From: a virus
DNA length: 13,865 bases
Direction: 5' to 3' (one strand)
Virus genome (UHGV): UHGV-0099111
Made by a program: the position numbers. Positions within the stretch are counted from its first letter, which is position 1. Each line of letters begins with the position of its first letter. Below are positions 1 to 3,000 of this stretch, in pieces.

Positions 1-3000
1 AGGCCTGCGATTACCAGCAGGCCTGTTATTAGCTCAGTGATGTAGATGGTCATTGCCTTACCTCCATAAGCGCCCTATTAATAAACGCCGTCATTGGATT
101 TGCACACCCCCACCCCGTACCATCTGGATTTCTTTTAATTGGCTCCTTCTTCACTTTGCGTTTCGCATAAATAACCGTCTTCCACTTACGCTCAACAACA
201 CTCAAATGCCCTTGTTTCACCATATGCCTTGCTGCTTGAGCGATTCTGTTATTTGGTATTCCGGTGATCAGTGCTAATTCATGTGGGGAGAATTGTTCAT
301 GAGTTTTCAGATATTCCAAGATGATTTCTTTTCCAGTCACGATCTGCTCCTGTAACTATCCCATGTAAACGCAAGAGTGCACCCGCCGCCATCATTCATC
401 CTGTCAATAACACGCTCACCAATGAATGCCGAAAGTTCATCTTTGCTCTGGTTGCTAATCAGGATTGTTGGCTTCATGCGCTCGTAGCGGGTGTTGATGA
501 TTTCGAACATGATCATCTTTTCCGCCTCGCTTCCAAACTGCACACCAACCTCATCGATAATTAGCAGGTCAGGTTTAGTGAACTGTCGGATCACTTCATC
601 CTCTGTGCGGGTGGAGTTTTTCGACCATGTTGATTTATATTCTCTGGCAATTTTCAGCGCCGTTGTGAAAATAGCTGAGCTTTGATGTTCCGTAATTGCG
701 TGCCGGGCGATAGCCAGTGCAAGATGATTCTTTCCAGTACCAGGCTTTCCACACATAACCAGCCCACCGCCTTTCTGTAACCTCTCAGGCCATTTGCTGG
801 CGTATGCCTGACACACCCTGAGCACTCTCTTTGCATCGTCGTTGACTGGCTCGTAGTTCTGTAGTGTGCAACCCTTGAATCGTTCAGGAATATCAAGATT
901 ATTCAACAGAAACTCGACATTGCGCTTACGTGATTCCTCGTCGCTTTTAATCTTCTCCGCCTGTAGCCGAATAAGCTCATCTCTCATGCATTCCGGGCAT
1001 TCGCTAGGTCTTGAGGCAAACTTAATTGGCCCAGTCGAGTAACGGTTACGCTGCTCAAACTCACCATGTTTTTCACAGATGCCAGTGCCAATTTCTACAG
1101 CTGTATGCTCGATAGCAATTGGCGGAGAACTCAATTCTGCAAGTTTTTTCTCCAGTTGGGAGATCTTTTCATCCAGCGTCATGTTCACTCCTGCGCCCAT
1201 GAAGGCATTTCAGTTTGCCCGTAATCTTTGGCGGCAAAGTTTTCCTGCATAGCTCGCTGCTGCGGCCTCGGTTGAGATTTCCCCTTTGGAGTCTTGGGCT
1301 CAAAAATCCCCTGCCAACCACTGGCGATGCTCTGGTTTATAATTTCTTCAGGTGTATATCCCTTCTCCAGACTTCTGCTTAGAACGTTGATAGCCTGAGT
1401 AATACTTTGCTTAGACTTGATCGACTTACCTATCTCCTTGCGATAGGTAACCCACGACAACCATGTTTCTGCTGATAACCAATCAGGCAACTCTGTTTCT
1501 AGCGGGTCGAACTTCTGAGAAATTTTTTTGGGGGATATAGGGGGTTTATTAATATTTTCTTTTGTCTTTAAAGAATGTCTTTTGTGTGTCTCTAACTTCG
1601 AGACATTTAGTGTCTCTAATTTGGAGACATTTTTTGTCTCTAACTTCGAGACAAAGTTGCTAACTTGGAGACACTTGCTGAATTGCCACGCAGATACCTC
1701 CCTGTTTACACCGATTTGATTTCCATCCATAAACAGGCAATTCATTGAAATCAGTTCTTTTTTAGCCTTGTTAACATTCTGCCTTGATAGTCCTGTTAAC
1801 TGAGCAATTTGCTCATCGGCTATTCGATCTGTTTTCTTATTGAAGCCATATGTTTTCCGGACGTAGGCCAGCATAACTTTCAACTGGCGAGCGGTTAAAT
1901 CGGCACTTGCGATAGCTTCCAGCAGCTCGTTAGCGAATCTGGTGTAACCATCATCGATATCAGCCACTCTTAGCTCCTGTTCGGCAAAGTTACCTCTGCC
2001 GAAGTTGAGTATTTTTGCTGTATTTGTCATAATGACTCCTGTGGATTGATCCAGTAATTACCTCAGAATTGCATATCAATTTGCTTAAAATCCTCGGTGG
2101 CGGCCGGGGATTTTTTCTTTGTGATTTCATCAAGCGCATACTTAAAAGCCCTGCTAATCGGACTGATGTCTGATGCCATTCCGAAAGCACACAAGACCGA
2201 AGCAATAAATCTCCAGTCCGTTCTGCTTATCTTCGATTCATGACAGCCAATCATCTTTGCCAGACCGCGCTGGGTAAGCGTTGACAGGTTGATGAGTAAA
2301 TCAGTTTCAGCGCGATCAATTTCTCGCTGTGATAGTTTGCTGTAACTTGTTTGTTCCATTTCTTATGATTCCAATAGTGAATATTTAGCTGAAAGGTATG
2401 CGTGGAAACGCATATGGCCTTAGTTGGTCAGATATATTGGGACTCGCTTTGTCAGCGACGTAGGACGAATGTCCATTGTGAAAATAGCGGTGTTACTTAT
2501 GCAGCCAGAAGGTTCTTTTTGCTTATTTCAAGCATTTCGCTTGCTTGATATTTGCCACCAGAAATCTCTTCGATTTTTGATGCGTATTTCGTTTTCCCAA
2601 AAAACTCAGTCTTAGGGAGGAAGCCGTTTTTGAGCCACTTATAGACAGCCCTTTTGCTAACTCCACAAGCCTTCGCAACTTCAGGGATGCCGACACCTTT
2701 AATCGGCTCATCAAGATTTTGCATAGAGATATCCTTTTTCGTACTTTCAGTACGCATTATGATTGAACTGAAAGTTTTTGCAAGTGCTTTAGTATCGTAC
2801 TCATGGTTCAGAATGAAAAAGTGCGCAAAGAATTCGCCCAGCGGCTAGCGCAAGCCTGTAAAGAAGCTGGTCTTGATGAACATGGTAGGGGAATGGCTAT
2901 AGCCCGTGCCCTTTCTCTTTCGTCCAAAGGCGTTAGCAAATGGTTTAATGCTGAGTCTTTACCGCGTCAGGAAAAAATGAATGCGCTTGCGAAATTTCTA

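What the first reader, a model, noticed from the sequence alone, without database searches (positions are those of the whole stretch)
2005..2116. OOP-type antisense RNA unit overlapping the 3' end of cII
A near-consensus promoter (TTGAGT-17-CATAAT) overlapping the O start codon, plus a strong intrinsic terminator inside the cII 3' coding region on the opposite strand, define a transcript of about 77 nt antisense to the last ~54 nt of cII. This matches the geometry of lambda OOP RNA, which triggers RNase III-dependent decay of cII mRNA.
Basis: partly seen in the sequence, partly recalled or inferred. Interest (0 to 1): 0.4.

Follow-up and report, generated by a model that had tools for sequence, protein, structure and literature searches.

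The report
Lambda-type OOP antisense RNA gene

Summary
The window is the early-right region of a lambdoid phage read backwards, with cI, cro, cII, O and a DnaC-like loader. On the + strand between O and cII lies a promoter (TTGAGT, 17-nt spacer, CATAAT, with an extended -10 TG). Its 36 bases from -35 to -1 are identical to lambda pO. By homology transcription starts at G2041. It should end at the T-run after a 12-bp hairpin (2087-2114), giving a 77-nt RNA (2041-2117). This RNA is 59/77 identical to lambda OOP and 76/77 to the HK022/mEpX1 allele. Its 5' end has the same 22-nt offset from the cII stop codon and the same 55-nt overlap with cII as in lambda. The terminator hairpin keeps pairing through compensatory changes across phages. 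In phages whose cII 3' end is different, the conserved pO core is followed by an unrelated terminator 65-70 nt downstream. Similar sequence is found in 261 phage records and 1680 of 5426 complete E. coli genomes. Published work already describes oop across lambdoid, Stx and P22-like phages. Expression and RNase III-dependent cII mRNA decay are inferred from lambda and were not tested here. Novelty: already known. Interest is low.

The parts
2005..2010 (+). pO -35 hexamer TTGAGT. It lies inside the first codons of O on the other strand.
   Evidence: Promoter scan. Identical to lambda pO.
2025..2033 (+). pO extended -10, TGtCATAAT. The CAT at 2028-2030 is the reverse complement of the O start codon.
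   Evidence: One search reports TG before the second hexamer. CATAAT plus the downstream block was used as the anchor to extract 24 distinct variants from 76 IMG/VR loci with four different upstream modules, so CATAAT is invariant there by construction. The TGn in front of it, which was not part of the anchor, is kept in all 24.
2023..2055 (+). Conserved 33-bp junction block. It holds the -10, the discriminator, +1 and the first 15 nt of the RNA. On the - strand it holds the Shine-Dalgarno AGGAG and the ATG of O.
   Evidence: It is the only part still matching at 97-100% identity in phages whose cII and replication genes differ (hits H35-H40). The same block is described in PMC3349717.
2037..2056 (+). 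LexA-box-like sequence TCCTGTGGATTGATCCAGTA (CTG-N10-CAG), spanning the transcription start.
   Evidence: 14/20 matches to the LexA consensus TACTG(TA)5CAGTA (the consensus is from my own knowledge), against 15/20 for the lambda site. A LexA binding sequence within lambda oop-pO is cited in PMC5869508. Binding was not tested here. The CAG half is lost in the Erwinia phage.
2041..2117 (+). Predicted OOP RNA of 77 nt. The start at G2041 and the end at 2117 are placed by homology with lambda OOP (38675-38599).
   Evidence: 59/77 ungapped identity to lambda OOP. One difference (position 2060) from the HK022 and mEpX1 alleles. Minimum free energy -27.2 kcal/mol, z = -3.98 against shuffles.
2041..2084 (+). 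Predicted 5' stem-loop of the RNA. It is specific to this allele.
   Evidence: Single-sequence fold. The consensus fold does not support it, because the lambda-type and HK022-type alleles pair in different registers.
2087..2117 (+). Intrinsic terminator tO: hairpin 2087-2114, whose 3' arm includes the start of the T-run 2111-2116. It lies inside the cII coding sequence.
   Evidence: Terminator scan. Covariation: 93.8% of cells paired, 3 pairs with compensatory changes, and 38-59% paired when the partners are slid. It is the only consensus helix in RNAalifold.
2063..2117 (-). The 55-nt stretch of the cII mRNA 3' end (last 17 codons plus the stop) that is fully complementary to the RNA. This is the presumed antisense target.
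   Evidence: Coordinates. The same 55-nt overlap is stated for lambda in PMC3349717.
2063..2359 (-). cII gene (98 aa).
   Evidence: Pfam Phage_CII, E 1.2e-32. 35% identical to lambda CII.
1185..2030 (-). O-type replication initiator gene. Its first codons carry the pO -35 hexamer and it contains the ori iterons.
   Evidence: Pfam Phage_rep_O, E 4e-36. NCBIfam phage_O_Nterm. Iterons at about 1587-1675.

Best explanation
This is the pO-oop-tO unit of a lambdoid phage or prophage, in the HK022/933W-type allele.

Proposed mechanism, with the basis of each step:
1. Host sigma-70 RNA polymerase starts at about G2041 from an extended -10 promoter. The -10 hexamer overlaps the O start codon. (Inferred by homology with lambda.)
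2. It transcribes leftward in phage terms (+ strand of the window) for about 77 nt and stops at an intrinsic terminator inside the last codons of cII. (Inferred.)
3. The RNA is perfectly complementary to the last 55 nt of cII plus the 22-nt cII-O spacer on the pR transcript. (Shown by the sequence.)
4. As shown for lambda, the RNA-mRNA duplex is cut by RNase III and the cII part of the message is degraded. This lowers CII and pushes the decision towards lytic growth. (Inferred from lambda.)
5. A LexA-box-like sequence over the start site may tie this to the SOS response. (Inferred and weak.)

Shown here: the sequence features, their homology, their conservation and the covariation of the terminator.
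For: Context: cI-like S24 repressor, cro-like gene, cII, O and a DnaC/IstB-like loader are in lambda order.

Homology to lambda:
- The promoter from -35 to -1 is 36/36 identical to lambda pO.
- The RNA is 59/77 identical to lambda OOP and has the same length.
- The 22-nt offset and 55-nt overlap match lambda. The lambda +1 found here, 38675, agrees with the statement in PMC3349717 that base -19 is 38694.

Structure and conservation:
- The RNA folds better than all 200 shuffles, z = -3.98.
- The terminator stem keeps pairing with three pair types at one position (UA, CG, GC) and with GC/CG swaps, even though these changes alter CII residues.
- In phages with different cII 3' ends (phi296, SEN34, Flyfo Tbat2_3, Erwinia Midgardsormr38) the same pO core is followed 65-70 nt later by a terminator hairpin. 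In phi296 and SEN34 that hairpin has an unrelated sequence.
- Similar sequence occurs in 261 phage records and 1680 of 5426 complete E. coli genomes.

Annotation and expression in relatives:
- Homologous stretches are annotated as oop RNA in phage 21, HK633 and HK629.
- Transcripts from the same core were seen by RNA-seq in P22 (63-nt read beginning GAUUGAUCCAGU, PMC13397905) and in BTP1 (PMC7067206).

Mechanism in lambda: PMC3985674, PMC3349717, PMC5869508 and PMC12197685, all citing Krinke and Wulff 1987 and 1990.
Against: - No expression data exist for this particular element.
- The promoter-plus-terminator pattern alone would occur about 0.8 times by chance in a window of this size (my estimate from the counts).
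- The predicted 5' stem-loop is not conserved in register between the lambda-type and HK022-type alleles. Any structural requirement for pairing or RNase III cutting is therefore unverified for this allele.
- In lambda the physiological weight of OOP at natural copy number is modest and debated, because most strong phenotypes come from multicopy expression.
- Rfam has no model against which to score it.
Confidence: 0.9

Rival explanations
1. The important product is the act of transcription from pO, not the RNA. Polymerases leaving pO collide with or impede pR-driven transcription heading into O and the ori iterons. This tunes transcriptional activation of the origin and therefore replication. 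On this view the short RNA is mainly a by-product. This reading does not exclude the antisense role.
For: - In lambda plasmids a pO -10 mutation lowers copy number, whereas raising oop RNA levels does not. A dual pR/pO promoter model is proposed in PMC3985674.
- Here pO sits about 350-450 bp from four ori iterons inside O, the same layout as lambda.
- The promoter core is the most conserved part of the unit. It is kept even where the RNA body is replaced.
Against: - The terminator and a similar RNA length (about 65-80 nt) are also kept, with compensatory changes, which argues for selection on a defined RNA.
- Scrambling nucleotides 2-46 of lambda oop abolishes its effects although initiation from pO is intact (PMC3349717).
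- The conserved core also holds the Shine-Dalgarno sequence and ATG of the next gene, which alone could explain its conservation.
Confidence: 0.25
2. The RNA also or mainly acts in trans. It could act on cII messages of other lambdoid phages or prophages that share this cII 3' allele, or on host mRNAs as an Hfq-type small RNA through its terminator hairpin and U-tail.
For: - Plasmid-borne lambda OOP knocks down cII of imm21 and lambda/P22 hybrid phages despite mismatches (PMC3349717).
- Many E. coli genomes carry several copies of the unit, up to 5 places per genome.
- The RNA ends in a GC-rich hairpin with a U-run.
Against: No host target was sought or found here. No published evidence for Hfq dependence of OOP turned up in the papers read. 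The cis target with perfect 77-nt complementarity is the simplest reading.
Confidence: 0.1
3. The promoter-like and terminator-like sequences are incidental or a silent relic, and no discrete RNA is made.
For: - The bare pattern is not statistically unusual for a window this size.
- The -35 hexamer matches the consensus in only 4 of 6 positions.
Against: - 36/36 identity to a promoter proven active in lambda.
- The extended -10 TG is kept in all 24 variants examined.
- The terminator covaries.
- Transcripts were detected from the same core in P22 and BTP1.
- The surrounding regulatory and replication genes are all intact ORFs.
Confidence: 0.03

Closest known systems
Bacteriophage lambda OOP RNA (pO-oop-tO, lambda 38675-38599)
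   Same: - The promoter is identical over 36 bp.
- The predicted RNA is 77 nt in both.
- Position is the same: start 22 nt past the cII stop, 55-nt overlap with cII, and the -10 hexamer over the O start codon.
- The two-hairpin layout and the terminator strength match (-16.3 against -16.0 kcal/mol).
- RNA identity is 59/77.
   Different: - 18 substitutions in the RNA, mirroring a cII gene that is only 35% identical overall.
- The 5' hairpin pairs in a different register.
- The LexA-like box differs at two positions, 2043 and 2047.
- The replication partner downstream of O is a DnaC/IstB-like loader rather than lambda P.
oop alleles of HK022, mEpX1, 933W and other Stx phages
   Same: - The RNA differs from the HK022 and mEpX1 alleles at one position, 2060, in the cII-O spacer.
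- The whole 141-bp query (1990-2130) is 98.6% identical to mEpX1 and 95% to 933W.
- E. coli strain N921 carries a 100% identical 126-bp copy.
- A Shimwellia pseudoproteus contig carries the same RNA sequence behind an HK022-type upstream module.
   Different: HK022 has another -35 module, because a small DUF2740-type ORF replaces the O start. 933W has two extra changes in the terminator stem and loop.
oop RNA of P22 (antisense to c1) and OOP of prophage BTP1
   Same: Same conserved -10 and +1 core and the same first bases of the RNA (GAUUGAUCCAGU). [quoted passage not shown] Both were detected experimentally by RNA-seq.
   Different: The body and terminator sequences are unrelated to the window's, and the P22 read is shorter (63 nt). 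The window's allele is closer to lambda's than to P22's.
Other phage cis-antisense regulators (P22 sar against ant, lambda aQ against Q)
   Same: Short antisense transcripts that lower the expression of a developmental regulator (PMC12197685).
   Different: Different loci, different targets and no sequence relationship. sar covers the ant ribosome-binding region rather than a 3' end (the sar detail is from my own knowledge).

Membership tests
Lambdoid OOP antisense RNA (pO-oop-tO) | [quoted passage not shown] | tested here: met
   cII 2063-2359 (-) and O 1185-2030 (-) were identified by Pfam. The unit lies at 2005-2117 (+).
Lambdoid OOP antisense RNA (pO-oop-tO) | pO promoter whose CATAAT -10 overlaps the start codon of the downstream gene, within the conserved 33-bp junction block. 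| tested here: met
   36/36 identity to lambda pO. The reverse complement of window 2023-2055 is ACTGGATCAATCCACAGGAGTCATTATGACAAA. It matches the published consensus at every fixed position (PMC3349717).
Lambdoid OOP antisense RNA (pO-oop-tO) | Sequence homology of the transcribed region to a characterised OOP RNA. | tested here: met
   59/77 ungapped identity to lambda OOP. BLASTN E-values of 1e-35 to 1e-63 to lambdoid phage records, some of which annotate the stretch as oop.
Lambdoid OOP antisense RNA (pO-oop-tO) | Self-terminating at an intrinsic terminator (tO) inside the 3' coding end of cII, giving an RNA of about 77 nt. | tested here: met
   Hairpin 2087-2114 with T-run. Covariation supports the stem. 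The predicted length is 77 nt. The actual 3' end was not measured.
Lambdoid OOP antisense RNA (pO-oop-tO) | Complementary to about 55 nt of the cII 3' end plus the cII-O spacer. | tested here: met
Lambdoid OOP antisense RNA (pO-oop-tO) | The RNA is actually transcribed. | not testable with these tools
   Only indirect evidence: the same promoter core is active in lambda, P22 and BTP1.
Lambdoid OOP antisense RNA (pO-oop-tO) | Reduces cII expression through RNase III-dependent cleavage of the cII-O mRNA. | not testable with these tools
   Established for lambda (Krinke and Wulff 1987 and 1990, as cited). Inferred here.
Rfam family for OOP | A match to a curated covariance model at its gathering score. 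| tested here: not met
   No hit at gathering threshold in the whole window. Only chance-level hits to unrelated families in 1980-2160, all far below their cut-offs. No family described as OOP appeared among the hits, so this says nothing against membership.
LexA (SOS) box at pO | CTG-N10-CAG palindrome close to TACTG(TA)5CAGTA, bound by LexA. | tested here: inconclusive
   CTG-N10-CAG is present at 2039-2054, with 14/20 matches to the consensus against 15/20 for the lambda site. The looser pattern CTGT-N9-CAG occurs 6 times in the window against 1.5 expected. Binding was not tested, and the box is lost in the Erwinia phage.

The most novel reading that the evidence does not exclude
A resident prophage carrying this allele could use OOP in trans. 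It would knock down cII of superinfecting or co-resident lambdoid phages that share the HK022/933W-type cII 3' end, with output tied to the SOS response through the LexA-like box over the start site. The small RNA would then act as a cross-phage anti-lysogeny or competition signal among the several lambdoid prophages found in many E. coli genomes.
Probability: 0.1. Interest if true: 0.4.

Novelty: already known. Interest (0 to 1): 0.07.

Why it matters
It matters little as a discovery. OOP is one of the first antisense RNAs ever described, and its presence in lambdoid, Stx and P22-like phages is already in the literature.

The practical value is for annotation:
- Genome pipelines rarely mark this RNA. 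None of the E. coli RefSeq hits listed and few of the phage records listed show an RNA feature there.
- No Rfam family matched it.
- The unit is nevertheless present in roughly a third of complete E. coli genomes.

It is also a clean example of a coding region, the disordered C-terminus of CII, that evolves under a double constraint from a protein and from an RNA terminator on the opposite strand.

Tried and rejected
1. Rfam, at gathering and at permissive thresholds, gave nothing useful.
2. I looked for conservation of the predicted 5' stem-loop. RNAalifold on nine phages keeps only the terminator, and the lambda-type and HK022-type alleles pair in different registers. I therefore make no claim for a conserved 5' structure.
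3. I considered whether the pattern alone is significant. It is not. Promoter-like sites are fewer than in shuffles, and a promoter-terminator pair within 120 nt is expected about 0.8 times.
4. A single-protein search of viral contigs with CII returned only relatives at least 95% identical. That was useful for promoter variants but not for distant comparison. I used tBLASTN against phage records instead.
5. Shigella phage 75/02 (CII 72% identical) keeps an antisense terminator with a completely different stem but lacks the pO core. I found only a weak TGgCAGAAT candidate by eye and left it unresolved.
6. The exact-pattern scan of species-representative genomes gave 24 hits. Judging by the organisms and, in three cases, contig sizes near 48.5 kb, I suspect most are lambda DNA contamination in unrelated assemblies. 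It says little about host range beyond Escherichia and Shimwellia.
7. The idea that the hairpin is a terminator for rightward (cII-sense) transcription was not pursued. On that strand only four T follow the stem.

Full report
**What is in the sequence**

The window is the early regulatory and replication region of a lambdoid phage or prophage, read with the phage's rightward operon on the minus strand. The genes, identified by ORF listing and profile searches, are:
- a DnaC/IstB-like loader, 337-1200 (-)
- an O-type initiator, 1185-2030 (-) (Phage_rep_O, E 4e-36; phage_O_Nterm)
- cII, 2063-2359 (-) (Phage_CII, E 1e-32)
- a cro-like HTH gene, 2497-2757 (-)
- an S24-peptidase cI-type repressor, 2803-3510 (+)
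- an N-like antiterminator, 5195-5557 (+)
- Erf and SSB further on

No single phage record or E. coli genome covers more than 58% of the window. It is a typical mosaic.

**Checking the observation**

- The promoter scan finds TTGAGT (2005-2010), a 17-nt spacer and CATAAT (2028-2033), preceded by TG (extended -10).
- The terminator scan finds a 12-pair hairpin at 2087-2114 with a T-run.
- The CAT of the -10 hexamer is the reverse complement of the O start codon. The reverse complement of the bases just downstream of the hexamer is the O Shine-Dalgarno sequence AGGAG.
- As a bare pattern this is not unusual. The window has fewer promoter-like sites than shuffles (10 against 21.9) and 25 terminator-like sites. 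From those counts I estimate about 0.8 promoter-terminator pairs within 120 nt on one strand by chance.
- The case therefore rests on comparison with other phages.

**Homology with lambda OOP**

- Aligned with lambda, the 36 bases from -35 to -1 are identical to lambda pO.
- The lambda OOP start (G, record position 38675) corresponds to G2041. That lambda coordinate is consistent with the statement in PMC3349717 that base -19 of pO is 38694.
- A 77-nt RNA would end at 2117.
- The ungapped identity of the two 77-mers is 59/77.
- In both phages the RNA starts 22 nt beyond the cII stop codon and overlaps cII by 55 nt. PMC3349717 gives the same overlap for lambda.
- The window's RNA differs at one position (2060) from the HK022 and mEpX1 alleles.
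- The 126 bp from 2000 to 2125 are 100% identical in E. coli strain N921.
- The phage 21 record annotates the homologous stretch as 'oopRNA'. The HK633 and HK629 records call it similar to lambda oop.
- The two lambda records held here do not annotate it.
- Rfam gave no match at gathering score and only chance-level hits to unrelated families.

**Structure**

- The 77-mer folds at -27.2 kcal/mol, better than all 200 dinucleotide shuffles (z = -3.98). It forms a 5' stem-loop and the terminator hairpin.
- An unbiased consensus fold of nine phage alleles keeps only the terminator.
- On eight more diverse terminators, 93.8% of cells are paired, against 38-59% when the partners are slid by 1-3 columns.
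- Three pairs show compensatory changes. One of them has three pair types (UA, CG, GC).
- Because the hairpin lies in cII codons, these changes alter the protein (KKSPAATED here, KKRPAATER in lambda). This points to selection on the RNA or DNA structure rather than on the protein alone.
- The 5' stem-loop is not conserved. The lambda-type alleles pair AGAUCCAG with CUGGAUUU. The HK022-type alleles, including this one, pair GUGGAUUGAU with AUCAAUUUGC.

**Conservation beyond sequence**

- I extracted the region from 76 IMG/VR loci with near-identical cII, anchoring on CATAAT and the block downstream of it. This gave 24 distinct variants with four unrelated upstream modules: lambda-O type, HK97/HK633 type, HK022 type and one other.
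- CATAAT is invariant in this set by construction. The TGn in front of it, which was not part of the anchor, is kept in all 24. The -35 region changes with the module.
- This agrees with the lambda/P22 hybrid pO described in PMC3349717.
- In phages whose cII 3' end is different, the same -10 and +1 core is followed 65-70 nt later by a terminator hairpin. This holds for phi296, Salmonella SEN34, Flyfo Tbat2_3 and Erwinia Midgardsormr38 (whose CII is only 34% identical). In phi296 and SEN34 the hairpin sequence is unrelated.
- Similar sequence is found in 261 phage records and in 1680 of 5426 complete E. coli genomes, with up to five places per genome.

**Mechanism**

What follows is established for lambda and inferred here. 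OOP is a 77-nt self-terminating transcript from pO. It pairs with the cII-O mRNA and causes RNase III-dependent cleavage. This reduces cII expression and favours lytic growth. The papers read are PMC5488031, PMC12197685, PMC3985674, PMC3349717 and PMC5869508, all citing Krinke and Wulff 1987 and 1990 and Krinke et al. 1991. Further points from those papers:
- The last 17 residues of lambda CII are dispensable for activity but needed for control by OOP.
- The RNA is destabilised by PcnB polyadenylation.
- A LexA site has been reported within oop-pO.

Transcripts from the same core have been seen by RNA-seq in P22 and BTP1. The window keeps a CTG-N10-CAG over the start site, with 14/20 matches to the LexA consensus against 15/20 in lambda. 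This remains untested, and the box is absent from the Erwinia phage.

**Rivals**

- The best-supported alternative does not exclude the antisense role. It holds that pO activity itself modulates pR-driven transcriptional activation of the origin (PMC3985674). The layout here fits, with pO about 350-450 bp from four iterons in O.
- A trans-acting role on other phages' cII or on host targets is possible, but nothing here supports it.
- A chance or silent relic is very unlikely, given the identity to an active promoter, the covarying terminator and the intact neighbouring genes.

**Verdict**

The element is a member of a textbook family, and its distribution across lambdoid and Stx phages has already been published. 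PMC3349717 even used the same 33-bp block to locate it. Novelty: already known. Interest is low.

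Noticed in passing
window 4571-4603, ORF 4614-4751 (+), terminator 4769-4790: Two adjacent LexA-box-like palindromes (CTGTAAGGGATTACAG and CTGGGTTTAAATACAG) sit directly upstream of a 45-aa ORF (MMAHDVNRDDYIYEHDKPVYVRSYCRVRFGELENVRQHFRSYPNC), which is followed by an intrinsic terminator. This looks like a self-contained SOS-regulated accessory gene between the cI side and N. The ORF has no Pfam or NCBIfam hit. The stretch has no match in 5426 complete E. coli genomes, and only the terminator matches phage records. One IMG/VR contig (L120) shares 3791-4792 at 99.5% identity, so it travels as a cassette with the upstream gene 3959-4450 (phrog_2602, function unknown).
   Followed up: partly
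window 1587-1675: Four ori-type iterons lie inside the O gene, three at 24-bp spacing and a fourth 20-24 bp further on. Each contains an inverted repeat, TGTCTC-TAAYTTSG-AGACA. The layout is like ori-lambda but the iteron sequence is different.
   Followed up: partly
window 2063-2116 (- strand), CII residues 81-98: The CII C-terminus encoded opposite the RNA is far better conserved with lambda (11 of the last 18 residues, KK.PAATE..QI.M.F) than the protein as a whole (35%). This fits a double constraint from the antisense RNA and its terminator.
   Followed up: partly
window 2337-2350 (+) and 2783-2756 (-): A pRE-type CII binding motif, TTGC-N6-TTGT, lies inside the 5' end of cII. It is homologous to the site annotated in mEpX1. 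A pR-like promoter, TTGCAA-16-CATAAT, lies just upstream of the cro-like gene.
   Followed up: no
L093 (Shigella phage 75/02 Stx) 646-673 (-): This phage's CII is 72% identical to the window's. It keeps an antisense terminator at the same place with a completely different stem (AACGUCCGG/CCGGACGUU), but it lacks the conserved pO core. Only a weak TGgCAGAAT promoter candidate was seen by eye. Either its oop has a different promoter or the terminator serves another purpose.
   Followed up: partly
L009 (Salmonella phage SEN34) about 540-606 (+ in locus): The pO core is present, and the predicted 67-nt RNA with its own terminator seems to end about 15 nt before the stop codon of the upstream cII-position gene (CDS 621-941). 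If so it would be antisense only to the intercistronic mRNA.
   Followed up: no
loci L096-L118 from the genome-contig scan: Exact matches to the pO-oop core appear in assemblies of unrelated organisms such as Bradyrhizobium, Shewanella, Pseudomonas, Kitasatospora, Bacillota and Ruminococcus. Most are low-coverage or short contigs, and three of the contigs are about 48.4-48.5 kb long. I read this as likely contamination with lambda control DNA rather than real prophages, but I did not align these contigs to lambda.
   Followed up: no
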